Shown in pieces: positions 32,801-62,575 of a DNA stretch of 64,000 nucleotides. The stretch covers positions 62,001-126,000 of the forward strand of contig NMRA01000064.1 in assembly GCA_002633005.1 (NCBI GenBank), read 5' to 3'. The first letter of the stretch is position 1; each line of letters begins with the position of its first letter. A program made the position numbers and the translations under genes. The notes under the pieces were generated by a model. That model was not told where the DNA came from. It ran no database searches and saw nothing but the letters and a program-made list of their open reading frames with translations. This stretch comes from Phoronis australis (Eukaryota > Animalia > Phoronida).

Positions 32801-35800
32801 AAATAAAATCGGCACACGTACCACACGTGCGCAGGCTTCTCAGGCAGGCCCATTGCACTGATCTCCTTGAACTATTTTCAAATATGCTTTATAAAACTGA
32901 GCTGAGGAACTAGAAACCAGACTCAAGGGTCTAGCAGTGTTCTCCAGACGGACTCAAACTCCTGACTGGGGCACACTAGCAAATGAGAGCATTACATACC
33001 ATTCTCCTGGAGTGTAAAAATCAACTTGAAGAAATTTCTACAATCACAATCTAATCTAGAATCACGCTCAATTAAACTTGTCAAGCAAGCCTTTTGCGTT
33101 GGCACACAATAGTGTAGTTAAGCTGGTCAGACCTTACAGACTCAATAGAATGATGAAAGTTAGGTCCAATTTCTCTGAAAGTCTACCGTTTTTCTCCATT
33201 TGAAGTTTTTTGGTGAAAGTATTTCATACAAAACACATCTGCTTCACAACATTACGTGAGCTTATCAGATGAAAGCAGACAATGAGAGAGCTGGATTATA
33301 TAAACATTGGCATGCCACTGTCAGACTTATAATGACATGGCTGTAACCGACAGGCCACTGGGTTACTCATTCCACAGCGCGGGTGCGTAACTGATAGTAG
33401 TTCCTAGGGAGTACCCCTACTGAAAAGGTATATGAGACGTGCCGATTAGAAAGGTGACTTTTCACGACCAGCTTTCCTATACTGTGCCTTATCAGACAAA
33501 ATTCCATAGGAAAAAGTGCTTTTCTGACACCATTTCCCACAAAAGGGTCCACTTTTAGTGTCCAAAACTCTACAAAAAACTCCTTTTCTGAAGATACAAA
33601 TCTACCAGTACTTAAAAATTGGTTGTTTTTTAAACGTGTGTCTGTTTAAACTTTTGTTGCACAAGACCCATCTCTTCTTGTATAAATATTGTTTCAGGCT
33701 TTATTGGTTAAAAGTACACTTGCGCACTGGAATCCAGGAATCAGATTGATTACATACTATAAATGGCTTTTACAGTGACAGACAGTCACTACTGGACTAG
33801 AAAGCAATGTGTGGATCAAGCCATTACGTAGGGTGTTCTCCCAATCAATGTGTGGACCAATCCCTTATGTAGGGTGTTCTCCCGTTCAATGTGTGGATTA
33901 AGCCATTACGTAGGGTGTTGTCCCATTCAATGTGTGCATCAAGCCATTACATAGGGTCTTCTCCCATTCAATATGTGGATCAAGCCATTACGTAGAGTGT
34001 TCTCCCGTTCAATGCGTTTATTAAGCCATTACGTAGGGTGTTCTCCCATTCAATGTGTGGATCAAGCCATTACGTAGGGTGTTCTCCCATTCAATGTGTG
34101 GATCAAGCCATTACGTAGGGTGTTCTCCCATTCAATGTGTGGATCAAGCCATTACGTAGGGTGTTCTCCCGATCAATGTGTGGATCAAGCCATTACGTAG
34201 GGTGTTCTCCCGATCAATGTGTGGATCAAGCCATTACGTAGGGTGTTCTCCCGTTTAATGTGTGGATTAAGCCATTACGTAGGGTGTTCTCCCGGTCAAT
34301 GTGTGGATTAAGCCATTACGTAGGGTGTTCTCCCATTCAATGTGTGGATCAAGCCATTACGTAGGGTGTTCTCCCGTTCAATGTGTGGATTAAGCCATTG
34401 CGTAGGGTGTTCTCCCACTCAATGACTTTATCAGACTTGTGCTACTTGCCAACATCCCATAATATCTGGCTCCTTTGTTAACTGCTGAATGCAGTCTTTT
34501 GTCTGGTATGACAACAGGAAGGCCAATTATCTACCACGCTTCATTGGCTGCATTAAGTGTATAAACAATGGGATTAGAAATCTTTAACATGGTTGGGTAC
34601 ACAAGAGATTGATATGAATCTACACAGACTGGAAGTCTGGACCAGACTTGATGCACTCATCCTGTGTCAGCTGTTATACTTACAATTTCTCCTTCAGACT
34701 TCATTTGTATTCTTACATCATGACGATGATCTTCATGCAAAGAAAATGGCCGAGGTAGAACTATTGCCTTGAAGCCATTCACGTTTGATAGTTGGACCTG
34801 AAACCATGTAAGCAGATTCCTAAATGATTGAGTAAAACCTAGGGAACAAAGTGTCCACGGCCCCGTCTTCTACAAAAATATGGTGTATTTAACTTATAAA
34901 CAGCTAGCTCTTCTTGTGGTTAAATTATGCCTTGTTCCAAGACAACTTGATTATGCCTGGTTCCAGTTGTTGTTAAATTATGCCTTGTTCCATGACAACT
35001 TGATCACTTCTGAGTTGACTGTGACTGATTGCCTAAGCCATATTCTACCAGGATGTCAGCTTAAATGGACTTAGTTATTGTACAGTTTAGTTGTTTATTG
35101 CAACTGGTCGACTCAAACTTACATAAGGCATCATGAACTTACCAGGGTTTTTAGGTCCTTTGCAATGCCGATTGTCAATAAAAGTGGGTCAGAGTTCAGG
35201 GAGCGTTCATACACTGCCACGTAAACTGTCTGATGATTTGAGGCATCTGGGACTGGTGTATGCATGGCCAATGGTTCATTTGAGGCAGATGGATTGAGTA
35301 ACGACAGATCCTGTGCTTGGACTGGTGTATGCCCAGCATCGCCAACAGCGGCAGCTTCTTCCAAGCCTCTGCCTTGATTTTGTTGTTCGCGAGCTCTGAT
35401 ACCCGTAAAGTGCCACAAGCCAATGATTATCACCGTCTCATTGACATAGTAAATGGCGTCTTGTTTATCAGCATGTTTCCATTCATCATTAGTCTGTTTG
35501 ATATCAACACAGACCTTTCCTTTGCTACTGTCATTTTCCCGTTGGTAGCAGACGTACACAGGTTGCTTGAAGTGAGTTCCTTCTGGCCCCATCACAATAA
35601 TGGGCATAACATGCTTTTTTGTGGGTGTATCCTGTGGTTGAATGATTCTCATTGTTAACTTGACAGACTGTGGACTGGTCAGTGCCCCTGGAGGAACATA
35701 CAGCAGCAAGTTTTGTTTAGGGTGGACAAAGAAGCCACCGGATTTGTCAAATGCTCCACTGACCTCGCAGCTAATTGTGCTAAGTGTAACATCCTGGATG

Positions 35801-35970
35801 GAGTCGATTGCTGTTTCCTTTCCGCGAGCAACTGTGCTGCTCTCATTGACGGAACCTTCATGCTTCATTGCATTATTATGAGTTTTGCTCATTGCTTTGA
35901 AAGTCTCCTTTTCACTATTGTGAAAATGGCTATGATTATAACAATTTCTTTCTTGTTGCTTTGCCAACAT
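29843..35970 (-). CDS. ZU5-domain protein with UPA-like and putative death-fold C-terminal regions (UNC5CL/PIDD-like architecture)
   Basis: Exons 35978-35143 (ATG 35970), 34797-34684, 31006-30839, 30358-29843, joined by phase-0 GT-AG introns with an open frame throughout. ZU5 signature GAFDKSGG..LLLYVPPGAL..PIIVMGPEGTHFKQPV..WHFT. It is followed by a beta-rich segment (VYVAVY..LLLTIGIAKD) and a helical last exon. A possible 5'UTR exon lies at 37962-37912. Confidence 0.8.
31243..31575 (-). mobile_element. Penelope-like retroelement relic (GIY-YIG endonuclease)
   Basis: Frameshifted translation VY..EFVCPMNECV....RYIGQT..L / RISVHLQNGAIQDHF...RLKALESLLI..KPVLN..Q, typical of the Penelope GIY-YIG C-terminus. 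Confidence 0.75.
33805..34424. repeat. 41-bp minisatellite, about 15 copies
   Basis: Unit CAATGTGTGGATCAAGCCATTACGTAGGGTGTTCTCCCATT, head-to-tail, with no spacers. Confidence 0.95.
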
Positions 35971-36495
35971 TCTGCCGCCTGTAACAAAACAGAAGAATTA
36001 TAATGCTTTGAATTCAATGGTAAAATAACTAAGCCTGCAGTGAAATACCTAGTAGTTAATTTTGGTGATGTAGCTTTCCAATTATACAATTCCCAAAACT
36101 TAAAATTGTATTTCCTCGGTATTGTAAGCCACATTTCGTCCTGTGTAGTTGGCAGTTTTTATGATAATAATAAACACCCCTAGAAGCATACCGTTTGCGG
36201 TGCAGTCGTGAGTGCATTTTAAGGCGACGAATTGCTGTTGTATGTAAATGAAGAAGTGTATACACCAAGGACCACTTTGAAATTGGTATGTGACTCCTAG
36301 CAGGAAAACATTTGCCAGGCAAGGACAATTGGCAAATCAACAATTCTTAATGAAATTTCAGAATTATTGCTAAACAGAGAATGAATCAACTCATTCCATT
36401 AAAGTAATCCTTCAACAGAATGTGATAACTTTTGTTGTTCTAGGACATTTATTAATGGTATAACTGTGGCTTGAAAATGTTGATTTTAATGCACA

Positions 36496-43839: not shown

Positions 43840-46800
43840 TCATGACACTCCTTTTTGTGCAGTTTCTTTGTCAAGTCTACTTTGCTGTAAACAGTGCTGT
43901 GCAGATTCAAAGCAAGGGTCTATCTTGAGGGCCTCCTGCATATCTTCTATTGCCAATCCAAAACGACCTGTAAGTAAATAGTAAATAATCATGAAAAATT
44001 ACTATCACCAGTGCAACTAGTTAAATTGAGAGCGATTGCATTTCACTTTATTGCATGCTTCTTCAATGCAGTGTTGGTTAAATGTTGTTCAGAAATCAGC
44101 GATCAAAAGACCTATGAAAATGACAGCAGCCATGATTATGCAGCCCATCTTTGTACACTTGTAAATAAGTTTATAAAACAATAAGTCGATGCTATCTTAA
44201 CCAGTGTGGCCAAGAACCAACTTGATTCAATGGTCAAAACTGCACACAAAAAACTGTTATAAAGCCACCACCAATCCTTGTGTAAAATTACTAACGTTTG
44301 ATTTAGTTCCTTTACACTTACAACTAATCTTAATTAATTAATTATATTCAGATTAGACGCGATTACTGGACTGTAGAACAACTTCAGTTCCTTATTCCTC
44401 ACAGACCATGTGTAGAGCCGAGTGTCATCCAATGAAGAACTTTCATTTCTTCCAGAGTCTAGAAATTGCACCAACTTAAGTAATGGGCAATTTGATACAA
44501 TTTTCACAGCGATAAGCAGTCTAAATCAAACGTTATGGTTTAGACAAGAGGCGGGTGCCTAGCAACTTCTTAATTATAATCTAAATTAAATGTGTTCTGT
44601 TAGAATACCTAGCCTGTAATGGATTAATCCCCTGTTATAGTACGTCACAGCTGTTTTCTGAACATTCAGTGCTTTGGTATAATCTTCTATGGCTTCGTCG
44701 AAGTCAACTTTCAAGTACTTCACTAGCCCTCGGCTGTTGTAGGCTTGACATAATAGGTCTCTGCAATAAGAAATTGATTTGAGTGAACAAACAATTTTCC
44801 CATGAAGATGAAATTGCTCCAATGCAATAACACTGCGAACCTATTTGAAAGTGGTCTGCAAAATAACACATAAAACTTGTATTCACCAAGTGTAAAACAA
44901 CAAGACAATAATTACTGTTAAAGATTCCAACGTAAATTGACTTAAACACATGACCCTCTAGAATAAGACTCAGTAGTGAGCCTGGTGTCATAACCACTTG
45001 GGTAATAGAACAATTACCCATGGGTGGGTGATTGAAGCAACCAAGAACCTTCGATTTGGCAAACCGAACTTTAGATTTAGATCACTTATGCTTATAAAAT
45101 TGGTCTCAACTTGTTTCTTAGTCAGAAGAGAAGTCATTTCTGGGCCTGCAGCTTGATATTCCTCAAGCCATGATCAATGCATAAAATGACACGCCATGAC
45201 AAGACATGTAAAGCCTGGTCTCAAGCAATAACGAACTGCCAGTTCATTCGCAGTCCCCAATTCACCTCTAAGGAACAGTACAAGACTTAATTCATCACTG
45301 CAAGTGAACTAAATCAAAATATAGGTCGATTTTAAATGTGAGTTTTTAGCCATTTTAAACAAAAATCACACAAGCAGGGGTACCATATAACCAACATGTA
45401 TGCTGCATACATTCTGTAGTAGGCCAGTGTCTTTTTGCTGTTTTGGCAATGTTGATTTTTGAGCTTTTCTGAATTGAAATCACACATAAATTTTGTCTGA
45501 TTCTTCACCAATCACAAGGAATCCTATTCACTAAAACAAACTTATTTTAAGCCTGTTCTGAAGTGTTAATCTTTCGAAAATGCAGTAGGTATTAATGCCA
45601 AGATTTGTGGGTTATTCGCCCGAGTCATTGATATCCTGAGTCTTTAACTGTCTCATATCCAGCATTAAAGTGTGGTAAACAACTTGGGGCCACTTGGTCA
45701 CACTTTTCACAGAGCTAAGGTAAAATCTGATTTGCAAGCAACTTTCTCTTGGTCAAAGGGTTTGGATGCTTGAGTCGCACACAATTAGTCTCAGTACTTT
45801 TTCCAACATTTGGCGCTCAACTAAGGTTAGACCAACAAAACTCTGCGATGTGAGTAGGGCTTCCATGCAGGTGGTGGCGGATCCACAGCACAGGGAGAGT
45901 GCCGCTGAGGGCAAATTCCAGGAGTGCAGGAGTGCTGGTAAGAGATCGATAGCCAGGAGGTGAGCCTGTTGCACAGAAAGAGCAGGAGGGTTGTATCATT
46001 TGACTCAGGTGTGACATATGATCAAATAAAGCCTCTCCAAATCGCTTGCCATGCACTGAATTGTGGTCGATTGGTTTAGATGCTATACATCGGAGATGCC
46101 GGGTTCAAGTGTCGGTCACTGGTGGATTTTTCAACATCTGGTACAAATATCAATTCCTTTTCCATCATTCCAATATTGGTCGCTGTTCCTTTCGCATAAC
46201 CTTAATGAAATACTAATCAAGCAAAAGCTTAGCATAGAAAAAACAACCAAGTCGAGTTGTAAACCTCACCATGGCATAACATTAATAAGTGGTTGGATAG
46301 ATGCCATGCATTGCACAGCTACGTGGGAGGCAATATCCTTAGTTGACAAGATTCCTGACAGCACGTTGCACATTGTTGTTGTGGCGCGTGACGGGTGAGA
46401 CACAGAGTCGTATAAAGCTATATCTGCAGCAACTGCGTCTTAGCCAAACAATTTGGATACTTGGCTTTTTTCACACAGGAAACACTGGTTCAAGTCTCAG
46501 CGTTAGCAGATTTGATGATAAAAGTGGAGTAAACGGGGTCCCTCTTCAAAATGGCTACATGGAACCAGTTTCACTGAATAACAGACATTGCCGTTATTCA
46601 GTGAAAACTGGTTCTCAACAGCTAATTTCAAGAGGGACCCGTTTACTCCACTTTTACCAATTCCTCTACATGGGTACATCATAGTAATACCAGGAACAAT
46701 TATCTCTTCCTGGTAATACTAAACAACAACAAAAGCCCTCTGCACCAGTCTGGTACACAACTTCAAGAATGGGATAGATATTACGCAACATCTATGAGCC

Positions 46801-47895: not shown

Positions 47896-50800
47896 ATGTA
47901 TGGACACATGTTATTCACGAAGAGTATTCCTAGTGTTATTTTATTAACACTAGGTATTCAAATTCTGGTTCAAAATCTTGCTGTAGCTCTTTGCTCTTCA
48001 GCCTTTGTTCTTGCTTTCCTAAGATTTTATCGTCTTCCAAAGTCGGCGTCGGCGGTCAGTTCCTTCGCAGCTGCTGACAAGTCGACAAGTAAGGATAACG
48101 GAGAGGAAGATAAGCACTTTGTCATTGGTCATCGTGGTGCTGGGTTAGATGCACCAGAGAATACACTTGCTGCAATCAAATTGGTATGTTAGTGTCAGAA
48201 TTTAGACTGACACTGTTCTTGGTTTATTTCGTTTTATTATTGTTCTGTTTGTATTATTGATTGGCATGACCCCTGAGATCAGTACAGTGATGATGTAATT
48301 TGTTTATTAATATAGTGTGGAATTTTCTAAAAGACTCTAGCAGTTATTAATGCAGTCTGGAATATCCTAGTGACTAGTATATGTTTGTACAATGATTGCA
48401 TGGGAATTCCGGAAAGAATGTGCTTGAATTGTGAAAAGTTGTAGAACGTTACATGAGAGACTATAATTAAATACCCAGTCATGCCCAGTGTGGGACAATC
48501 AGTTAAGCAGTTAAAGCTTTGCTGTGAAGAGAATCAGCAAATACAGCGAGAGTCAATAGAAAGCCAGCTACTAGAGACAGCAGGTTAATGAATCACCACA
48601 AGACGAGTGTAACAGTTGCTGGAAGTGTCGCCCCTTGTTTTTAGACGTGTAATTTTTCTAAAAGTCCAGAGTTAAGAATTGCTTGTTGTAATGTTGATTG
48701 TTTCCATATGATTAATGATTACATTATAATCAAAGTACATGGCAAGTGCATCAATCTGCAGGCAAAATCTTGTGGAGCCCATGGTGTGGAAGTTGATTTG
48801 GCCATGACCAAAGATGGCGTGGCAGTTCTCTTGCATGATGACACAGTAGACCGTACTACAGATGGTAAAGGACGGATTAGTGACTACAGTCTGTGTGATG
48901 CCAGGAAATTGAATGCTGCTCACTACTTTGAAGGGTAGAGTTGTCTACAGTCATACGATTCAGTCCTTGTCATTCACTTTTTTCAGAATCATTTACAATC
49001 AGTATACCTAGTCTTACATACGGAATTTGCTTTTTTTATTTTTTGGTATCAGAACCAATTTCTTGTTATAGCAGAGAATTGAAAAGAAATGCACAATGAG
49101 AGCCTTGTGAAACTTTGTCAAGACAAGGAATTGAGCTTTAAGCACAGGACCACTGATTAAAGACCTTGACATGGTCAATTCCTTGTTTAGTGGATGATTA
49201 CGAATTTCCAGATTTCTTTTCTTTTCCAGTTCTAGTTAAGTAAAAGAGTATAATGTGTTGATTTGGCTTCTTGTTCCAGGAACAGATATTCGTTTGAAAA
49301 GATCCCTACACTAGAGGAAGCTGTCCAGGAATGTATCAAGTTGGATCTGATGCTCATCATTGATGTCAAGTCCTTGTCACAACAGGTGGCGCTGTAAAGC
49401 CTAACAAAATACTAGTTTCATTCACCAATGTGAAATTTATAAGAAATTGAGCTCAATCAATGCTGTTGGCACTGACAAAATTAAGTTTGTTTTCAGTCAT
49501 GCTTCGCAGATCTACGTTTTCAGTGAGGGAGGTTTAGGAATCGCGTGAATCCGAGGTGCATAGCACCGAGCATGGGAGGTCGGAGTTGGTTTCCCCCTTC
49601 CGTGTAAGATTTTTTTGTTTGTTGTAGCTGATTTCATTTTCTTGACAATGTTTTTTTTTAATTTTTATTTTTGACTCTGTCCCCCTGGTAGATCCGCCTC
49701 TGCTTGTGAAATGTGTTTTAAAACGTGTTTTCATTTAAGTCAAGGAATCTGTTTTGATTCTTGCGATTGTTACAATAGTGTTTTACCTGTTTGGCACACA
49801 ATGTGGCGTACAAGCAAAATTTTTATTTTGTCAAGTTTTCTCAAAAGATAAAGACTAAGAAACTTTTAGTCTGATAATAGCTTGGTTTGTTGTGTATAGT
49901 TGCCGTAACACAACAAGTGGTAAAGTTTTCAGTATTTGTTGCAAGGTAATCAGAGATAGGAAAATAGAAAAACAACGATTTTGGTAATTGTATTTGTACA
50001 ATATAAGTGAATATTATAGTATATTTTTATCCTGTTTTTCGTGAATTAATTTCACAAACTAGCAATCTTTGTATCTGAACTCTTTTCACTTATGTTCTAC
50101 TGGTGAGGAAGGCAGTCAAAACAAGAACATTCCACCTTTTTATTTTATTTATGGACTTTAATGATTTTTATGGAAAAAATAAAAGTGGCATAAACTCAAA
50201 ATGAAATGATAATTTAAAATTTATAACAGCGTTTTGGAGATTTCATCTTGTACATTTAAGTCGAGCAAAATTTGGTCACATTATTGATACCATTATTGAT
50301 ACTATTATTGATACCGTTATTGATGCCTTTATTGATACCATTATTGATACCGTTATTTTATTGTGGATGTACCTTTCTTTTATGTTAAATTTTACAAAAA
50401 AACATAGTCCTGCGATCATATATACATAATTATACTGAATTAAAATCTATGGTTTTGCAAATATTCGAACACCAGCTGAGTTGACAGTGAAATTAGACAC
50501 AATTTATTTCATTCTTTGGCATTTTGAGATATTGGACATTTTGAGTAGCCCACCGCTCAGTAGTAGCTGTTTATGCAAATAAATTTTGAACTGACTCTTG
50601 TCACTTTCCTGCTTTCAGGCAGTCAATGTGTTGGTTGGCCTCTATCACAGGAATCCACAACTTTACAAAAATGGCGTTGTTAGTTCCTTCTTTCCTCAAG
50701 TTATATACAAGGTACTGTGTATGTGTGGTGTCAAGTTATATACAAGATACTGTGTAGGTGTGGTCTCAAGTTATATACAAGGTACTGTGTAGGTGTGGTC

Positions 50801-53724
50801 TCAAGTTATATACAAGGTACTGTGTAGGTGTGGTCTCAAGTTATATACAAGGTACTGTGTAGGTGTGGTCTCAAGTTATATACAAGGTACTGTGTAGGTG
50901 TGGTCTCAAGTTATATACAAGGTACTGTGTAGGTGTGGTCTCAAGTTATATACAAGGTACTGTGTAGGTGTGGTCTCAAGTTATATACAAGGTACTGTGT
51001 AGGTGTGGTCTCAAGTTATATACAAGGTACTGTGTAGGTGTGGTCTCAAGTTATATACAAGGTACTGTGTAGGTGTGGTCTCAAGTTATATACAAGGTAC
51101 TGTGTAGGTGTGGTCTCAAGTTATATACAAGGTACTGTGTAGGTGTGGTCTCAAGTTATATACAAGGTACTGTGTAGGTGTGGTCTCAAGTTATATACAA
51201 GGTACTGTGTAGGTGTGGTCTCAAGTTATATACAAGGTACTGTGTAGGTGTGGTCTCAAGTTATATACAAGGTACTGTGTAGGTGTGGTCTCAAGTTATA
51301 TACAAGGTACTGTGTAGGTGTGGTCTCAAGTTATATACAAGGTACTGTGTAGGTGTGGTCTCAAGTTATATACAAGGTACTGTGTAGGTGTGGTCTCAAG
51401 TTATATACAAGGTACTGTGTAGGTGTGGTCTCAAGTTATATACAAGGTACTGTGTAGGTGTGGTCTCAAGTTATATACAAGGTACTGTGTAGGTGTGGTC
51501 TCAAGTTATATACAAGGTACTGTGTATGTGAGGGGAAGTTGAATATTTCACTTCAGTTATATGTAGCTTATATTTCATTTGCCTTGGATTTATACTTGAC
51601 ATCCATTTGAGGTGTTCTTTCTTTGTAAACAAACAAATTCATTGCTGGTAGTGTGATTGAATGATCACAACTGGTTTTGTTAATGTCACTTGATGCGTCA
51701 TTTTTAAACATTTCACATATAGCGGCAAGGTTAGATTTTTTGATATGTTGAGTAATTGTAAAAACTTAAAGGGTGAAATTGAAATTATTTTTAATCTGAA
51801 TTAGAGTACAATGTTCTAAATGTTATCTTTACTACGTTTACCTTTGGTACAATGCTTTTGTTGATGAGGCTTTAAAGTATAGATTGTTTTTTAACAAAAA
51901 ACATTCATTTAAAAGTTAAAATTTTGAATCAATAAAATTGTCATTTTCAAATTATTGAATATAAATATATTCTGTCAAGGTTGTACGAAATGAATTAAAA
52001 TTTGAAAATTATTCACGTCCTCCAAAAAACTTTCAAGCAATACACAGGACTTGGTCATGTGATTGAAAGATAATACAAACTGTCACTATCAGTCTTACAC
52101 TCACCTGAGGCAGATGCTTGGGTAAGTGTATTTTAAATACTGTATTTATTTGTGGAGGTGACTTTTCTGTTATGTTTTTCAAGTTGAGTTCTATTCCGAG
52201 TTGTGCACGATATAACAGCGTTACATACATTTTGTCTTTACTAGGTAAAAAAGGCCGACCCAATGGTGGTTACTTCATTAGCATTTCGCCAAAACGTCAT
52301 GACATTTGACATTGATGGTGAACAGCGACAATATCCCTGGCATATACGTTTCATAGTACCAATACTAGATTTAGTGCATGAGTGGTCCCTGTATACTTGG
52401 CTTTGCTATTTATGTGGGAACAACATTCTTGTCTGCTACTCCACCATGATTTCAAGGTAAGAGTTTCAACTTTTACCCAAATCCATCATTTTTTATTACC
52501 AGGTGAAACGTGCAGACAGTAAAATCAAAACTTCATTGGCTTATCATTCCCATTTGTTGGAGAAAAGGGGTGATGGTTCAATACGCAACGAAGAATTATG
52601 GAAACGGGTTGTAGCCCCAGCTGGTGATATTGTGTACGAGTGGGCTATTTACTCAGTTCTCTGGTTTTTCTGTGGAATCTCTCATGTAGTGGCTTACAAA
52701 AATATGGTGTCTAGGTAAGGAGTCTACTTATTATTTTCATGCTCAATATTTTGTAATTTGTCTTTTATTATTTTCTAAGAGTGTTGCAGTAAAATTCACC
52801 CAATATGGAAGACAAATGAAATTTCATTTTTACAATATTCAAGCTCTGCATCATAGTTATCATCAAAAAATATTTTGAAAATTTGTGAGCATTCACAGCC
52901 ATGTTAGAAGCCGGCCTTGAAAATTTAAAAAGGCAAATTTGGCATTCTTTTTGTCCAGAACTGGCAATATTTATTGTGGTTTAACTAAGAAAGTGTGCAA
53001 CTGTTCAATTTTATTACATTCTGAAATCCTGGAATAAAATTTTGAAGCCTTTTTATTTTTATTTATTTATTTATGTAAATTTCTTTTAAAAGACTGGGTG
53101 ATCACTTCAGTGTATCCACTGATTTTCAAGTGAGCCCAGTTGGAAATAATTACATGAAGTAAAATACAGAGTTATGTACACTTAGACTGAAAATATTAAT
53201 AAATAAAATAAATTAGTATGAAAATTAGTTAATATGTACAATTAGATGAATAAATAAGATATAATAGATGAGCTGAGGCCTACAGTCCCGAGAACCGCGC
53301 ACAAAGTCCCAGTATTTCTGTTTGGAGACGTGGACTTGATGGCAGTCCCCAGCCCGTTCTATGCGATAGCACCTCTGTAGACAAGTTATTTTACCTTAGT
53401 TGTTTTTAAATAGCATTGCAACAATTTCCCGAATAATCTTTTGCTAATACAGTGTTAGAAAACTGCAAGAACTTGGATGGCCAACTGCAGGTAATTGTAG
53501 TAACTTGACTTGTGTTAATTTTGGATCATGCAAGAATATACTATCAGATAACTCCATTGATCATCTATTATCTGTTTGGTTTCAGAGATTTTGTGGACTA
53601 CTGGAGAAGACGTGGTATCGAAGTTATTCCATGGGGTGTGAACACGGAAGATGAGAAACGATTCTTTGGAAACACATTGGGAATATCGTACATGACGGAC
53701 ATTATGGAGGGGCATCCACAGTGA
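47896..53724 (+). CDS. GDE1: Glycerophosphodiester phosphodiesterase 1 (GDE1/MIR16)
   Basis: Exons 47896-48183, 48762-48934, 49280-49385, 50619-50711, [52245-52456 or 52503-52714], 53586-53724. N-terminal hydrophobic segment; GDPD motifs IGHRGAGLDAPENTLAA, GVEVDL..TKDGV.VLLHDDTVDRTTDG, EKIPTLEEAV, SSFFPQVIYK, W..RGIEVIPWGVN..EK..LGISYMTD. Confidence 0.93.
50695..51530. repeat. 35-bp minisatellite, about 24 copies, spanning the GDE1 exon 4 donor
   Basis: Unit TCAAGTTATATACAAGGTACTGTGTAGGTGTGGTC; internal copies are identical. Confidence 0.97.
52245..52456 (+). CDS. GDE1: GDE1 alternative exon 5a (predicted mutually exclusive)
   Basis: ttactAG|GTA...TCAAG|GTAAGA; 212 nt, phase 0 to 2, open frame VKKADPMVVTSLAF..EWSLYTWLCYLCG..MISR. 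Confidence 0.88.
52503..52714 (+). CDS. GDE1: GDE1 alternative exon 5b (predicted mutually exclusive)
   Basis: taccAG|GTG...TCTAG|GTAAGG; 212 nt, phase 0 to 2, open frame VKRADSKIKTSLAY..EWAIYSVLWFFCG..MVSR. Confidence 0.88.
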
Positions 53725-54576
53725 ATTCTAGGACATTATTTTAATAAAATCTTGGATTTCTAGTTGACAATATTGCCCGTGTCAAAATACTCTTTGAATC
53801 CCATTTTTGCCAACAGGATTAATGGTAACTTATATATTTCCTAAAACAAAAGATGCTGTCCAATTTTGTTTTTTGTTTTTTTTGTTTTTTTTGAAGCAGT
53901 TGACATCCCTCGTCACGCTTTCTATGAAAATGCTATATTCACTCTCAAGACACTTTTTATGCTAACCTTTCCTATGAATGGCGTAACTTGTGCTGCATGG
54001 AGTTGCTAATTTCACAACATATTTTGAATGAAGTGTTATGGTTTCAGATAGTCCGCTTATGGGCTATCAAATGTTGCAGAAAAGTGATGCCTAACAGGTC
54101 AATAACACATTTATCCAGCAAAAGGTTTATTAAAGTTGTGTTATGTCTCCAAAATTTTACATTTTCAGTGTTCAAGTTTGTTTCCTATTTGCACAGGAGA
54201 GATCATTGTAAACCTCCTCACACTAAAATAAGAATATTCATTCCTCTGAACTCGTGTAAAAAGTGTACACTTTTTGTGGAAGTAAGTTTAAAGCGAAAAA
54301 CTTTTGATTTAGATCACTAACCACTAGAAATTAGAAATTTGGTCTTAATTTGTTTTTACTGATGATTTGCTATTCCTGGAGATCATTTTCTCCAAATACA
54401 ATGACACGCACAACAAGAAAGCTAGTCTGTTATAAAAAGTGTTTCTAGTCTTTGGTTCAATAAACATTTAATATTTGAAACTGAGTTGAGAGCACTTCAC
54501 TCAGTGTAATCAAGTCGGGACATTTTCAGAGACCCAGAAATGTACTACTTGAAACATGTTGGGGCCTGTTTAAAAT

Positions 54577-55479: not shown

Positions 55480-58400
55480 TCAAGTGGAGTTTTCAACTGT
55501 TGATGTGCCTTCAGCTGACAAGGAAGACGTTTTTGAGTTCGATCTCTTGATGAGGTATTGGGTAAGGTTGACGTTCTCAATACCAGCCAACAGGTCTTCT
55601 ACATCTTTCCCAGCATCCTCTGCCAGACTCGCACCAGAGGTCACATCACTACTCGCAGGCTGATTGAGAATGGAAGCACCAGTCTCTTCTGCAGAATTTG
55701 AATCAAGATGGACACTACCATCTTTCAATCCACCTCCATTATAATCCTTGTTCCCATTCTGACCTCTATCGTCATCACATTCATCAACATTCCCCATTCC
55801 CACACTGCTTTCAGCATTGAGCGGACAATCTACAATTTCAACCTCTGTACTTTCGTCACCGACATCATCTTCAACTGCACTATCATTTCCATTTTTTGCG
55901 CTCGATACATCTGTGGAACCCAACTTCATGTCTTCCCTATTGCCATCTTCTTCAACATCTTCAGTAGTTTTCTGACAGTCATCGTCAGTGGCTGCTGCTA
56001 CAGCACAATCCTCCTCACATGCATTGTTTGGGTTGTATTGTCCCATGTCTTCCTTAACACTTCTCCCATCAGCATCATCAACGTCTGCCTCACAAACCAC
56101 AGTCACAACAGGATCATCTTCAACTCTCTTTTCATCATTGTTATCTCCAGCACTTTCAGATACACACCCTGATTTTTGGCCATTTTCCTCATCCTCTTTT
56201 TCTGCTTTAGTTTCCACCTTCTCATCCTTTTCTTCCTCTTCCCCAGCTTCTTCCTTCTCATCTTTGCCAGTCGAAGGTGATGAAGAAGATGCCATTTGTT
56301 GGCTCTCATTTTCTTGCTGGTCATCTGCATCCTTGGTTTCAACAAAATCTGCGGACTCCCCCGTCGGTGAATTCTGATCTTTATCTTTCAAACCATCACT
56401 GCTCGAGATGGTTGGTGGAAGCTCCTCTTTTTCCGGAGAACTGAGATCAGGAAACAGTTGCCTGACTTCTTCAGACCTCGCTCTGTCAACAGCAAGCTCA
56501 CCTCTCTGCAATATGACACAATTGTTCTAGGGTACAGTAAGCATGTACATAAATGTGCGTTGTTTTAATTTAACAGCAATCTTTAATGGATGACATGCGG
56601 TATTTTGCAAATGATTTTTCTTGAAGCAAACCACAAATCACCTTTGTTCACTAACTCGGGTAAAATTTCTATAAAAGGATGTTACACTAGCACACTGTTA
56701 GGTTAACCTGATATGGAGATCAATTTTAAGGCAATAGTAGTGTCCTTAATTCAAAACCAGATGCTTTTGACAGAAAAAAATGCTGAGTATGGGTACTTTT
56801 TTAAGTATGCGCTGAAAGAACCAATTACTCCAGATTTGACTTGACCTTAAAATTATAACTTACTCTGCCTTTCAGTGATGAATTAATGCCAGACTCCAAA
56901 AGGAACTTCACAATGTCGGCCTGATCTCTGTCAGAAGCCCAGTGTAGAGCTGTCCAACCATTCTGAAAAGGAGCATTGAAAATTCAGTTATAAAGGAAAT
57001 CGTGTAAAACTGAATACATTTCAAGGTAGTCAATTATGCAACAAAATCAACCACTGGATATTCAAGGCTTATTAAATGCAATTACAATTGACTGAATTTT
57101 AAAGAACACATGCCCAGCGTCTGTCTAGCTCAAGGTGGAAAATTTTGCCCTCGACAAAGATATCAGTTCCACAAAAATAAAACTGTTTAAAATTATGAGT
57201 CTTAAGAGTTGCTAAGTTTCATATTTTGACGCTTTAACTAAGAGAAGTTCTATCAGGCCTGTCCGATTATATTGCAGCACTTGTTGATGATTCTTTAATA
57301 CTTGTGTTATTATAATGCCACACTTTTTGATGGTTCTCACATTCAACTGACAAATTACAACTATTGTGGCATAGAAATTAACACGATTTAACAAAATTCA
57401 TAAATTCATTTTAAAGGGTGTTAAATGGCTAATAAACCCAAACCTTCGGTCAGAACACTAAGACCACATACTGTTATAAAATCATTTAAATTCTGTTTCT
57501 TACTTTCGAGGTTAGAAATGCTTTCTAAGCTTGAGAAGAACTAATGAGCTCATTAAGTTTCTCATCACCTGTGGTTAGTTTCAGTCGTCTATACACCATG
57601 GCCATCAGGGTAATGCCAAGCAACTCTATGTATTAACCAATTGTAATGCAATCAAAGGATAAGACAATGAAGTTACTTGGGAGTACGCCTATGACAAAAG
57701 TTAACATTTTTTAAACCGGGCCCGGGATGTAATCTTTTTACTTGAACTTGAACTCGAAATTATTTTTGGCATTTTCTATTCTTTTTCGTGCAAACAAATT
57801 ATCAGTGTCTATTAGTCTGTACTCGAGTATATAATGACTTGCATGAATAACTTTCTAATCCAGGTATTAAGATTAAAAGCTAGTCTGATTTCAAAATTTC
57901 AAGTTTTTATTAAAAATCTCGAGTTTTTACTAGAGTTTGCAGCTCAAATCTAGAGGTTATCAAGTGCAAATTTGAACTAGAAACTCATTTGCATAAACCA
58001 TAATATACTCAAGGACAGAATAAGAGACACCATTCTTAAATTTGCACAAACTTAGGCAGACTAGAAAATGCCAAAGATAAGTTCGGTTTCAAGTACAAAG
58101 ATTAGATGCAGGGCCCAGGACATGTTTCATAGGACAGTTTGCCCCAACTAGATCCATCTTTCTGAAACGCTCTGCACTTAACCAATGAACACTCACTGTG
58201 CCTTGAGAATCGATCAAACAGCCACTCTGTACTAGTTGCCTGGCAACTTCTAAGTGTCCATGGTAACAGGCAAACATGAGAGGAGTGAAATCTGCCTAAA
58301 ACAACAGCATTCAATTTGATAACTCGAAGTTACGTTACACTGAAGAAGGCACCAAGTTCCATCAAATTCCACCACTTCACACAACAGGCAACATACAACA

Positions 58401-61400
58401 GAATATCCTGATTCAATGTAAAAATACACTTACCGGTAATTCATCAAAGCCAATGGTCGGATAAAACGTGCCCGAATTTTGGGAACCATTTTCTCCACTG
58501 AATAACGGGCATCAAATTGGTTCTCAGAATACGGGCACTGTATATCCGACTATTGCCCAAAGCCAAAGCAATTTTTATTAAACTTGTTTCAACGTTCAAA
58601 CAAAAATTTGTTATGGGATTTACAAATTTCTGATGTACAATTCAGGAGATGAGGAGCAGTAGTTTTCCAATTGGCAAAACTCAGTGGAATATTCAACATG
58701 CTTTGCTTCAATTTATTTTGAAAATTAACTTTTGCATAACTTTGTATAAGCTCTGTTTCTTCCCTTTAGGCAGCCTTGAATTACAGATTTGCTGTGACTG
58801 TCTAAGACTCATTTTTGTTTGGTGTCTCGGATATTTTTGTTGAGAGTTTGCACTTGAGGAAGACCAAGACAAATGGATTATGACTTCTCTTGGCTCCTTC
58901 TGTCAATATCTCATGTTGTTTTGCTGTAATATCCCATGATGCTTTGCTGTATTTAATACACCACAATGGGTGTACAGTAAGTCTTACTCTATTTAACCAC
59001 AATGGGTGTATATTAAGTCTTACTCTATTTAACCACAATGGGTGAATATTAAGTCTTACTCTATTTAACCACAATGGGTGAATATTAAGTCTTACTCTAT
59101 TTAACCACAATGGGTGTATAGTAGGTCTTACTCTATTTAATCACAAGGGTGTATATTAAGTCTTATTTTATTTAACCACAATGGGTGTATATTAAGTCTT
59201 ACTCTATTTAACCACAATGGGTGTATAGTAAGTCTTACTCTATTTAACCACAATGTGTGTGTACATTAAGTTTTACTCTACTTAACCACAATGGGTGTGT
59301 ATTAAGTCTTACTCTATTTAAAGTGGCTATAACCCCACCTTCCGTCACAAATATCTTTATTCAGACCACCATTACAAAATTTGCCTCAACTTGTTCTTTA
59401 GTCGAAATAGACTTCTGGGTTTAGAAAGAACCTGACAGTTAGTGTCAATTTATTCACCAAGCATGGCCTCAAGCAATATCAAACTATCAGTACTTTGTAA
59501 GATCCAAATCCCTTCTCATCCCACTACAGAACAACTTGATGAACACTTTAAACCAGTAAGTGCTCTAAATCAGAAGTTAGTTTCTTCGACGAAGTGTGGA
59601 TTTATTGCTGGTTTACACTGCTGTAGACGTTCAAGTTACACTCCACTCACCTCACCAAGGTCACTACTCTTAGCGTTGATGTCACATCCAGCTTTTATCA
59701 GTTTGGCAGCTATCTCTCCCAACATGTCCTGGTCTGCGCTAGGGCTGCGTGCACACTCATGTAATGCAGTGCGCTCATCCTGCATGAAGACCATTAAAGT
59801 TACAATGAACATGGCTTTGACAGGTCAAAATGGCAAAATTTAAATTAAGACAAAAATAAGAATGAAGCTGTTTATAAACAAAAATAATGCCTGTGAGCTC
59901 CATTCTGACCACAGAAAAACCATAGAAAATATGAAATGTGTTAATAGTTTACAGCCTTGAACAGCTGCGTCAATGTCATTGTGTCCAACTACTTTTGATG
60001 TGTACTGTACCTTGTTTTTCAGGTGTACGTCACATCCTCGCTCAAGAAGAACCTCCACAGCAGAAGGTTGGCACCAGTAGGCTGCCATGATGAGAGGTGA
60101 CCAACCAGTCTAGAACATAAAACACCCACCATGAAAATGGCAAGGCTATACCAAATCAGTGGATAAGGAAAAGGATTGTGCAACTTCAACAGTACAAGCC
60201 CAACTTAACTGAATCCCAAATCCTTTTTATGAACATCGATGCACTATACACTTTCATTGCAAGGCACACGTAGCACCATAAAGACATGAATTAAACTGAG
60301 GATGATTCTAATGGTTTTAATGTCAACTCATGGCATGCAACCATAGTGTGCAACAGAATTTGGCTATGGATCAATTTATTTACAAGTGTAGGGGTGATTA
60401 CACAACATTCAGCAAAATATTCAATCAAGGAAGTCGTTGATTCCCTACCAACTTGGTAAATCCAAGAAAGCTGGTTGTTTAAATAGTGCCTAACATTTTG
60501 AAACTAGCGCAAGCACACAGGGAAAATAAAGTCTTGTCAAACCCTTACGACAGAACTTGAAGATTTCCAACCACACTCGGGTATCTGGGGATTTCCCAGG
60601 CTCTTGACAGATTTCCCCACTGGACAGAAAAATTCCCTAACATGACCAAGAGCCCGACACAAAAACCTAATGGCATGTTTCCCTGGTCTGTGAATTGACG
60701 CTAAGAAATAGCTTTTAAAAGTTTCAAGTTTTAGTTATTTTGAAACCAACCTTGTCAACTGGATTGAGCTGTGATTTATTGTCTAGAAGAATATTGATGA
60801 TCTCCCCAAAACCTTTCATGGCAGCATGATGAATCGGAAGACATTCTCTCTACAAAAAAGAAGACTTTCAGGATGCCTACAAGAGAACCAATAACACGAC
60901 TGCTCTACTTCAATTCTGCATAGCTTAAATGCAGCAATCTCACGTGCTCCCATGTTTGTCTATTTTCAGACCCCCAAGTAAAACGCATCCTTTCAAATAA
61001 CTTGACAATGGTTCATAATGCAAATTTTTGTTTGCAGTTTGATCGTAAATGAGACAAGAACTTTAAGACATAAAACTATCGAAGCACTCCAAGGAAAGAA
61101 CTACTATCAAGATGTGTACAAACAGCAAGACAGGAATTCACCATTGTCAAACAATATAATAATTTGAAGTCAACCATCAGAACTTTTAAATAAACCATTC
61201 TTAGATGTTTTCTGCACTTCAAACGCTGGGATATTTACAAGGTCCCCAAATGAAATCACATTCATGCCAAGACTTGTACGATGACACTTGGCTTACCTCA
61301 AAATCCTACTGCTGCTGCTGATTTGGTTATTGGTCCAACTATGTTGCACACCCAGCAGAATTAATGAGAAATGTAATATGGCAATATTGTACAAAAGTTT

Positions 61401-62575
61401 TAGGTTGTAAAAGTCATTACTTGTCCGATTTTCAACTTCAAAAACCTAACCACGAGTACTTTACACGAAATATTCACATACATTATTTATAAATAAATTT
61501 CAAATCGAAAATTTGAAAAATACTATTGTCGCCGCCAGTGTGTTTATGATGGGTCTGATTATCTAGAGAACAACATCAGCAGCCTTTGGCATCCAGAGGC
61601 GATATAATTGCCTACAACTGCATGGTGCCTTTGACCATAGCAGCAGATTGTGCAGTACGCAAACCAGTTGAGTTACCCAATCTCAACCAGTAAGGGTGTC
61701 CATGTAGGATTCTTTTCATGTTGTCAACCCAATCAAGCAATGATAATCCATGATTGTTACAACCATGCTTGAAAAAGAATATGTCTGCTTGATACTGACC
61801 TCGTCTTTGACATTTACATCACACTTGGCTTCGATAAGAAGCTTGACAATATCTGGCTTCCCTTGTGACGCCACGTGAATAGCGCAAGAATTATGCTGGA
61901 AAATCAACAGTCTATGTTTAACAAAAACTCAAAATAGTTCACTCTCATATTGAATGACAGGAGAGACTTGAAAACAATGAATAAGCAGACTTTATAAACC
62001 CAGGAGTGGTGTGAAGAATAGTTAACTTGCAGTGAAAAAAGTTACTTTGTTGGGCAAAAACCCATATCGTGAATTCAACACTCTACTATTCCGGAGGTAG
62101 AGAAACGCATTGTATAATAACTTCCAAAAGTTTAGGCTGCACACCTCTGAGCCGAGTTGGATATTTTGATGTAACATTTTGATACGTTCTTCGATAAGTG
62201 CCCTATGGATATGCAGCATAGATGCTAATATACAGCAGAATCAGTGTGGCACTTTGGAATTTCACTAAGTGGCTATTTGTGGTAACCATGCAGGGGAAAG
62301 TTTGGGTATCTGAACAAAAATCTTGCCACTCTTCAGCCAACAAAGTTTGTCTAAAACAACGTCTCTGAATGACACCTTAAGTCCATGTTTCACACAATGC
62401 AAACCAACCTGAAAACAGAATAGCATGCTTCTGAAATGTTAACATCTTAACCACTTACAGTATAAGAGACCCAGTTCACATCTATTCCTTCTTGTAAAAA
62501 CTTCTTGACCTTAGCTGTATGGCCAAATCCACACGCCTCCCAGAAAGCTTCTTGTTTACTGTTGGCTGCTCCCAT
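55480..62575 (-). CDS. Ankyrin-repeat protein with N-terminal MGxxxSK motif and acidic disordered C-terminus
   Basis: Exons 62575-62459, 61895-61800, 60849-60751, 60109-60011, 59779-59651, 58295-58197, 56962-56864, 56505-55480. All introns are phase 0, and four exons are exactly 99 nt (one ankyrin repeat each): LPIHHAAMKG, GWSPLIMAAYW, FTPLMFACYHGHLEV, GWTALHWASDR. The last exon is D/E/S-rich. Confidence 0.9.
58960..59321. repeat. 36-bp minisatellite, about 10 copies
   Basis: Unit CCACAATGGGTGTATATTAAGTCTTACTCTATTTAA, in an ankyrin-gene intron. Confidence 0.93.

What the first reader, a model, noticed from the sequence alone, without database searches (positions are those of the whole stretch)
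52245..52714. Anciently duplicated, mutually exclusive exon pair in GDE1, enforced by a 46-nt intron
Seen: two tandem exons of exactly 212 nt with the same phases (0 to 2), canonical splice sites and no stops. Their peptides align without gaps at 26/71 identity (VK.AD....TSLA..DG..R..EW..Y..L...CG....Y..M.SR). They are separated by only 46 nt (52457-52502). Including both or neither shifts the frame. Known: very short spacing between a donor and the next branch point is a classic steric mechanism for mutually exclusive splicing (alpha-tropomyosin type). As I recall, vertebrate GDE1 has a single equivalent segment covering the late GDPD barrel and a hydrophobic membrane-associated stretch. Inference: deep divergence with both frames intact implies selection on two isoforms, perhaps differing in substrate (glycerophosphoinositol versus GP-NAE/lyso-lipids) or membrane targeting. 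I know of no description of this switch but could not search.
Basis: partly seen in the sequence, partly recalled or inferred. Interest (0 to 1): 0.85.

Follow-up and report, generated by a model that had tools for sequence, protein, structure and literature searches.

The report
Either-or twin exon in GDE1 enzyme
An invertebrate gene for the lipid-metabolism enzyme GDE1 carries two old, diverged copies of one exon and splices in one or the other, which is predicted to give two enzymes with the same catalytic residues but a different, likely membrane-facing segment; the mechanism is of a well-known kind, but we found no report of it for this gene.

Summary
Confirmed. Exons A (52245-52456) and B (52503-52714) are 212-nt homologues (26/71 aa, BLASTP E 9e-17) 46 nt apart. 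Either completes a 336-codon GDE1 frame; both, neither or retention stop early. RNA-seq of three samples shows A>exon 6 in 9/16/4 reads and B>exon 6 in 2/4/7, with no A>B joint at the 3-read threshold. A related species assembles both isoforms, and both exons are under purifying selection (dN/dS about 0.13 and 0.07). In a model of a homologue, the exon supplies barrel strands 5-6 and a GDE1-specific loop plus long hydrophobic helix; the catalytic residues lie in constant exons. Exclusion is likely steric (any branch point is under 46 nt from A's donor), backed by nonsense-mediated decay; the data cannot separate the two. A predicted 9-bp hairpin pairs A's donor with B's likely branch point (post hoc). 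The age is not dated and a substrate difference is untested. GDE1 is absent from a human catalogue of such events. New member of a known kind.

The parts
47896..48183 (+). GDE1 coding exon 1 (288 nt from the first ATG): N-terminal hydrophobic helices and the HRG...PENT motif
   Evidence: the start codon is inferred from the alignment, not from reads
48762..48934 (+). GDE1 exon 2 (173 nt), GDPD core
   Evidence: Pfam PF03009 E 4e-15; boundaries from AG/GT and frame
49280..49385 (+). GDE1 exon 3 (106 nt)
   Evidence: frame and alignment
50619..50711 (+). GDE1 exon 4 (93 nt); its donor is used to exon A, and to exon B in the relative
   Evidence: loose read ends matching exon 4 in 9/5/4 reads at A; the relative's contigs at A and at B
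50695..51530 (+). 35-nt x 23.9 tandem array at the start of intron 4 that repeats the exon 4 end and its donor (23 exact matches of the 16-nt donor context, the real donor included)
   Evidence: reads to exon A use the first copy
52245..52456 (+). Alternative exon 5A (212 nt, phase 0 to 2)
   Evidence: junction to exon 6 in 9/16/4 reads; from exon 4 in 9/5/4 reads; conserved in the relative, dN/dS about 0.13
52457..52502 (+). 46-nt intervening intron; the only well-placed yUnAy branch motif has its A at 52475 (intron position 19, 27 nt from the 3' end)
   Evidence: the branch point is predicted, not mapped; no A>B joint listed
52456..52477 (+). Predicted 9-bp hairpin (4-nt loop, -9.5 kcal/mol) pairing exon A's donor (-1..+8) with the branch motif
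   Evidence: found post hoc; 12 of 1000 and 344 of 5000 shuffles do as well
52503..52714 (+). Alternative exon 5B (212 nt, phase 0 to 2)
   Evidence: junction to exon 6 in 2/4/7 reads; exon 4-B-exon 6 contig in the relative; dN/dS about 0.07
53586..53724 (+). GDE1 exon 6, coding part to the TGA; read depth continues to about 54200 as 3' UTR

Best explanation
This GDE1 gene has a tandem-duplicated exon 5 whose two copies are spliced in one at a time, which is predicted to give two 336-residue enzymes, and double inclusion is likely blocked because the 46-nt intron is too short to splice, with nonsense-mediated decay likely removing any leak. Shown: the junctions exon 4>A, A>exon 6 and B>exon 6 in this species' label; both full exon 4-(A or B)-exon 6 paths in a relative; early stops for every other combination; purifying selection on both copies. 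Inferred: U1 on A's donor and U2 on B's branch point (about 18 nt apart) cannot assemble together, and a hairpin that pairs the same two signals may add to this (about 35%). Inferred from a homologue's model: the swap replaces strands 5-6 of the barrel and the GDE1-specific loop and long hydrophobic helix while the catalytic residues stay the same. The isoforms would therefore run the same chemistry and differ in membrane docking or in access for lipid versus soluble substrates. Each copy has lost a different set of family-conserved residues, as expected if they share out or tune the ancestral function.
For: Junction reads A>E6 9/16/4 and B>E6 2/4/7, GT..AG, in 3 of 3 raw runs. E4>A in 9/5/4 reads; two 268-nt contigs E4-A-E6 and E4-B-E6 in the relative; no joints inside 52150-52780. 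dN/dS 0.13 (A, 51 codons) and 0.07 (B, 52 codons), Fisher p about 4e-5 and 3e-5. Both isoforms open for 336 codons. The intron is shorter than the roughly 50-nt donor-to-branch threshold (passages of PMC5740500 and PMC7969005); the gene's other introns are 345-1791 nt. Model of P0010, pLDDT 89.7: exon 5 is residues 227-297, covering E235-240, H258-283 and E287-291. There are about 29 extra residues here against the bacterial GDPD 2pz0. Of 26 invariant or near-invariant columns only G284 lies in exon 5. Complementary losses among 67 other segments: A lacks W54 (55/67), S60 (60/67), W33 (45/67) and K66 (42/67); B lacks R15 (58/66), W52 (38/67) and P6 (42/63).
Against: Read counts are small and come from one study, with about 18-19% of each run read; a joint needs 3 reads to be listed, and an A>B product would be an NMD target, so its absence does not prove steric exclusion. 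The E4>B junction is not displayed for this species (one loose-end row was hidden), only for the relative. Skipping of both exons was not measured. The smallest spliceable intron of this organism is unknown, and nematodes splice about 40 nt. The structure is of a homologue (Ptychodera), not of the two isoforms. Helix hydrophobicity and moment are nearly the same in A and B (mean KD 0.86 and 0.90), which gives no sign of different membrane affinity. No enzyme data exist.
Confidence: 0.72

Rival explanations
1. The exons are real alternatives, but exclusivity is kept mainly by frame and NMD: the 46-nt intron can be spliced and A+B transcripts are made and destroyed.
For: A+B stops at codon 292, well upstream of the last junction. 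In human, 60% of MXE clusters have lengths not divisible by three and only 9% fit steric interference. In C. elegans, introns of about 40 nt can be spliced and 14 clusters rely partly on NMD.
Against: No A>B joint at 3 or more reads in any of 3 runs against 29 A>E6 reads. The predicted branch A is about 18 nt from the donor, and the gene's other introns are 345 nt or longer.
Confidence: 0.15
2. The donor/branch-point hairpin, not distance alone, is the working switch: A's donor and B's branch point are the two arms of one stem, so opening it for one factor leaves the other signal unusable, and proteins that melt or hold the stem set the ratio.
For: 9-bp stem with pair probability 0.85-1.0 in three sequence contexts; the donor is 2% unpaired against 15-40% for the other five donors; 12 of 1000 shuffles mask the donor as well.
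Against: Found post hoc; 344 of 5000 shuffles give a stem as long, and the exon 4 donor also has a 9-nt stem. A U/C-rich intron pairs easily with a purine-rich donor. A is the major form in 2 of 3 samples, so its donor is well used. No intron sequence of a relative was available for covariation.
Confidence: 0.08
3. One copy is a redundant or decaying duplicate, and its inclusion is splicing noise without a distinct function.
For: B has almost no coverage in X2 and low coverage in X3. Both copies have long branches (about 1.0-1.1) and have lost conserved residues.
Against: Both frames are intact in two species about 10% apart, with dN/dS 0.13 and 0.07. B reaches or passes A in X4 (7 against 4 junction reads) and has the deeper contig in the relative. 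Both score within the family range against a profile of 22 homologues (66 and 60 bits; leave-one-out range 43-117).
Confidence: 0.04
4. Long-range competing RNA pairings (docker/selector, Dscam type) choose the exon.
For: One weak duplex between the 46-nt intron and 51510-51550.
Against: None of 9 region pairs clearly beat dinucleotide shuffles (best 3 of 40; the candidate 12 of 40).
Confidence: 0.02

Closest known systems
Tandem duplicated exon substitutions / homologous mutually exclusive exons (e.g. PKM, OGDH 4a/4b; PMC5740500, PMC8373072, PMC9741552)
   Same: Two homologous exons of equal length and phase, one per transcript, embedded in a folded domain, both conserved, core function kept.
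   Different: GDE1 and GDPD genes are not in the human catalogue's supplement (0 hits; OGDH and PKM found as controls). Here the exon pair is only 37% identical, about the distance between GDE1 exon 5 of different phyla (34-37%).
Steric exclusion by a short donor-to-branch distance (alpha-tropomyosin exons 2/3; OGDH 4a/4b; C. elegans egl-15, let-2)
   Same: The branch point must lie under 46 nt from the upstream donor, below the roughly 50-nt threshold cited in PMC5740500 and PMC7969005.
   Different: In OGDH the branch points are distant from the 3' splice site inside a longer intron (the same for tropomyosin is recalled); here the whole intron is short, as in the C. elegans cases, but at 46 nt it is above the nematode minimum of about 40 nt. 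The branch point is unmapped, and a donor/branch hairpin is predicted as well.
GDE1 (MIR16) glycerophosphodiester phosphodiesterase family, Pfam PF03009
   Same: N-terminal hydrophobic helices, GDPD barrel, conserved His/Arg/Glu/Asp/Lys/Trp positions, 41-52% identity to named GDE1 proteins in the constant exons, same exon 5 start in unnamed genomic ORFs.
   Different: Two versions of exon 5. No second version was seen in 86 of 92 stored proteins that carry the segment (a weak test, because clusters are cut at 90% and the two isoforms are 87% alike).
Amphiura filiformis XP_072037751.1 (two GDE1 copies in one 758-aa model)
   Same: Also keeps two diverged versions of the exon 5 segment (41% identical).
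   Different: The whole coding unit is doubled (41% in the constant part too), not one exon; the model may be two fused neighbouring genes.

Membership tests
Mutually exclusive homologous exons (criteria of PMC5740500) | Homologous exons of like length, same phases and splice sites | tested here: met
   212/212 nt, phase 0 to 2, E 9e-17
Mutually exclusive homologous exons (criteria of PMC5740500) | Junction from the first exon that bridges the second (A>exon 6) | tested here: met
   9/16/4 reads in 3 of 3 raw runs
Mutually exclusive homologous exons (criteria of PMC5740500) | Junction to the second exon that bridges the first (exon 4>B) | tested here: met
   Contig exon 4-B-exon 6 in the relative. 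For this species only implied: depth rises from about 1.5 to 7 at B's start in X4 with no A>B joint, and one loose-end row was not displayed.
Mutually exclusive homologous exons (criteria of PMC5740500) | No joining reads, or joining shifts the frame | tested here: met
   No A>B joint at 3 or more reads; joining stops at codon 292
Mutually exclusive homologous exons (criteria of PMC5740500) | Encoded region embedded in a folded domain | tested here: met
   Starts inside helix 221-230 and holds two barrel strands in the homologue's model
Steric-interference type exclusion | Donor-to-branch distance under about 50 nt | tested here: met
   The intron is 46 nt; the motif places the branch A at position 19; predicted only
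Steric-interference type exclusion | Branch point mapped, and the intron unspliceable when NMD is off | not testable with these tools
   Needs lariat mapping, NMD inhibition or a minigene
Steric-interference type exclusion | Intron shorter than the organism's smallest spliceable intron | not tested
   No genome is held; only this gene's other introns, 345-1791 nt, were measured
Docker/selector competing RNA structures | One intronic element pairing with a selector at each exon | tested here: not met
   No duplex clearly above shuffles in 9 region pairs; conservation could not be tested
U2/U12 incompatibility | Flanking introns of different spliceosome class | tested here: not met
   All three donors are GT with U2-type sequence; the U12 donor consensus is recalled
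GDE1 family | GDPD domain with conserved catalytic and metal-binding positions | tested here: met
   PF03009; the HRG, PEN, E.D, HD..VDR, K and W positions are present in the alignment
GDE1 family | N-terminal hydrophobic helices and best matches to named GDE1 proteins | tested here: met
GDE1 family | Hydrolysis of glycerophosphoinositol and acylated glycerophosphodiesters | not testable with these tools
   Mammalian activity from passages of PMC11314389; no assay here

The most novel reading that the evidence does not exclude
The exon choice is a regulated substrate switch: one isoform prefers water-soluble glycerophosphoinositol and the other acylated substrates (GP-NAE or lysolipids). The ratio is set tissue by tissue through a hairpin that locks exon A's donor to exon B's branch point. 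The pair would then be a natural domain-swap experiment that locates what makes GDE1 accept lipid substrates.
Probability: 0.15. Interest if true: 0.72.

Novelty: new member of a known kind. Interest (0 to 1): 0.45.

Why it matters
No animal GDE1 chain appeared among the solved-structure hits, and mammalian GDE1 acts on both soluble and acylated substrates (PMC11314389, passages). Two natural isoforms that differ only in the GDE1-specific loop-helix module, both kept by selection, give a ready pair for testing what that module does. For splicing it adds an enzyme example of a homologous exon swap in an invertebrate, with a borderline-length intron and a candidate donor/branch hairpin that a small minigene can test. 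The class itself is well known, so the surprise is moderate.

Tried and rejected
No genome is held for the window, so the organism's intron-size floor and paralogues could not be checked. Pfam and PDB searches with the 70-aa exon peptides alone gave nothing useful; a search of longer proteins with B found none among 8 candidates. Two metagenome scans found no related locus. The protein Atlas gave no answer. The run index listed no RNA holder; the evidence comes from laying the reads. Earlier findings: three look-ups, nothing shown. Docker/selector pairing was not above shuffles. A third exon copy was not found. Use of the repeated donors in intron 4: one to six extra units all give early stops with exon A, and the reads use the first donor. 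A different membrane affinity from helix hydrophobicity was not seen. Dating by trees failed: A and B were sisters at 78/91 with 24 rows but split in trees of 69 and 27 rows, A falling near Capitella-like segments at 80-89/95; the A+B clade is neither shown nor rejected (p-AU 0.85, 0.49, 0.20). The phylum was not settled: the constant exons are nearest to echinoderm rows by path but without support, while the best named exon 5 matches are lophotrochozoan. The specificity residue F211 of the bacterial lysoplasmalogen PLD (PMC8016129) seems, by spacing from K177 and from W282 = 2pz0 W217, to match the 'SF' motif in constant exon 4, so it does not support a switch in exon 5 (my inference). No complex prediction was run, as no binding is claimed. 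Literature searches returned no GDE1 papers in their listings.

Full report
1. Observation. The window shows two 212-nt segments, A 52245-52456 and B 52503-52714. Each has AG before and GT after, is open in frame 1, and they are 46 nt apart. They align without gaps at 25/70 aa (26/71 with the junction Arg), E = 9e-17. Nucleotide identity is 103/212; by codon position it is 37/71, 43/71 and 23/70, and 5 of 14 four-fold sites match, so silent sites look saturated. tblastn of all seven exon peptides against the window finds no further copy.

2. The gene. The exons are 47896-48183, 48762-48934, 49280-49385, 50619-50711, A or B, and 53586-53724. With either A or B the frame is open for 336 codons. 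With both, or with the 46 nt retained, it stops at codon 292; with neither, at codon 243. Exon 2 hits Pfam GDPD. The named homologues found are GDE1 proteins of echinoderms, hemichordates, amphioxus, molluscs, an annelid, chelicerates, a priapulid and a nematode, at 41-52% identity in the constant part. The phylum of the window is not settled: the constant part is nearest to echinoderm rows by path, without support.

3. Expression. Three raw RNA runs of one study, of which about 18-19% each was read, and contigs of one run with another organism label were laid twice. All exonic depth is on one strand. Junction A>exon 6 has 9, 16 and 4 reads and B>exon 6 has 2, 4 and 7, both GT..AG. On the narrow stretch (32, 28 and 36 reads laid), exon 4 sequence precedes A in 9, 5 and 4 reads, and no joint is listed, so A>B has fewer than 3 reads in each run. 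Exon 4>B is not displayed for this species; one loose-end row was hidden, and depth in X4 rises from about 1.5 to 7 at B's start. Skipping of both exons was not measured. The A:B ratio differs among samples (chi-square p = 0.024; small counts, tissues unknown). X4 also has a few unspliced reads upstream of A and in the short intron. The other organism gives two 268-nt contigs, exon 4-A-exon 6 and exon 4-B-exon 6, with 23 and 19 differing letters.

4. Selection. The tool lists differences only away from contig ends: 19 of 23 for A and 13 of 19 for B. Over the 51 and 52 codons covered, A has 12 synonymous and 7 non-synonymous changes (dS 0.48, dN 0.061, ratio 0.13) and B has 10 and 3 (0.34, 0.026, 0.07), Fisher p about 4e-5 and 3e-5. 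Neither has a stop or a gap. Of 5 same-species variants in the two exons, 4 are silent.

5. Age and origin. A and B are about 1.8 changes per site apart, some 30-70 times the dN to the relative, so the duplication is much older than that split unless a burst followed it. Their 37% identity matches that between exon 5 segments of different phyla (34-37%). They share residues that are rare among 67 other segments (S11 1/64, A13 0/65, M68 0/67, V63 2/67, Y65 2/67), which points to a common stem within this lineage. The trees do not settle it: sisters at 78/91 in one, apart in the larger ones, with the A+B clade neither shown nor rejected (p-AU 0.85, 0.49, 0.20). The 27-row trees used 27 of the 69 segments, chosen by me to keep the closest and the named rows.

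6. What the exon encodes. An AlphaFold model of Ptychodera GDE1 from a 33-row alignment (pLDDT 89.7) is a GDPD barrel: 2pz0 at Z 30.1, rmsd 1.9, 230 aligned. Exon 5 corresponds to residues 227-297: the end of a helix, strand 235-240, a 17-residue loop, a 26-residue hydrophobic helix and strand 287-291. Counting the model's barrel strands, these are the fifth and sixth (my count). Between these strands GDE1 has about 29 residues more than the soluble 2pz0. Of 26 invariant or near-invariant columns only G284 is in this exon. A and B differ most in the loop (3/17 identical) and the helix (9/26), while the helix keeps its hydrophobicity. They have lost different family residues: A lacks W33, W54, S60 and K66; B lacks P6, R15 and W52. 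The relative's A has Ser at position 60. A barrel with neither or both copies could not fold normally (inference). That the helix faces the membrane is inferred from its hydrophobicity, not shown. In a bacterial relative a single pocket residue switches substrate (PMC8016129, passages), but by spacing it seems to map to constant exon 4. I therefore favour tuning of docking or access over a clean substrate switch.

7. How exclusion likely works. Any branch point inside a 46-nt intron is under the roughly 50-nt donor-to-branch threshold (PMC5740500 and PMC7969005, passages). The only well-placed yUnAy motif puts the branch A at intron position 19. The gene's other introns are 345-1791 nt. Against this, C. 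elegans splices introns of about 40 nt (PMC4165533, passages), this organism's floor is unknown, and NMD would hide A+B. A 9-bp hairpin pairs A's donor with that branch motif (-9.5 kcal/mol; pair probability 0.85-1.0). It was found post hoc: 12 of 1000 shuffles mask the donor as well and 344 of 5000 give as long a stem, so it is a lead. Long-range docker/selector pairing was not above shuffles. Confidence: real mutually exclusive pair 0.95; steric block as the main barrier about 0.75; measurable functional difference about 0.6; clean substrate switch about 0.2.

8. Prior knowledge. Ten literature searches were run; those naming GDE1 with splicing terms listed no description of this event. Of one search's two hits I read passages of PMC13310073, which names mouse Gde1 among alternatively spliced genes without giving the event type in those passages (its supplements were not opened), and saw the other only in the listing. 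GDE1 has 0 hits in the main text and 10 held supplements of PMC5740500 (long files may be cut), in the supplement of PMC8373072 (supplement search only) and in the main text of PMC9741552 (passages). PMC11314389 was read as passages. Smith and Nadal-Ginard 1989 was seen only as a reference. The library lacks most subscription journals, and a genome annotation may already list the two isoforms.

9. Verdict. A real, expressed and conserved either-or exon pair in an invertebrate GDE1: a new member of a known kind. Interest 0.45.

Noticed in passing
window 50695-51530: A 35-nt x 23.9 tandem array (99% matches) begins inside exon 4 and repeats its 3' end and donor, giving 22 further exact copies of the 16-nt donor context; reads to exon A use only the first, and one to six extra units would stop early.
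   Followed up: partly
window 52457-52477 and 52715-52733: The first 20 or so intron bases after A and after B look alike by eye, and B's donor has a weak 6-bp stem in the same register as A's hairpin (not significant).
   Followed up: partly
window 52085-52244: Sense-strand intronic reads at depth about 3-4 just upstream of exon A in X4 only: unspliced precursor or an upstream extension.
   Followed up: no
P0003 (Amphiura filiformis XP_072037751.1): Two whole GDE1 copies in one 758-aa model; the second lacks the HRG motif as annotated, so it may be a fused model or a catalytically altered paralogue.
   Followed up: partly
window 16667-16972 (+): Exon with a Helicase_C hit, E 2e-15; the name DDX54-like is recalled, not from a call.
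   Followed up: no
window 33370-35997 (-): Gene with a ZU5 domain exon, E 3e-10; the rest was not modelled.
   Followed up: no
window 44589-46439 (-): TPR-containing exon and further open stretches without a Pfam hit, head to head with GDE1.
   Followed up: no
window 56106-61928 (-): Ankyrin-repeat exons of a gene converging on the 3' end of GDE1.
   Followed up: no
window 25967-26860 (+): Retroelement remnant with a zf-RVT hit, E 3e-09, split by a stop.
   Followed up: no
window 52797-52899, 53055-53300, 54298-54330: Short dispersed repeats that draw reads from other transcripts (loose ends).
   Followed up: no
window 13081-14042: A 482-nt unit in two copies at 99% identity: a recent duplication or an assembly artefact.
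   Followed up: no
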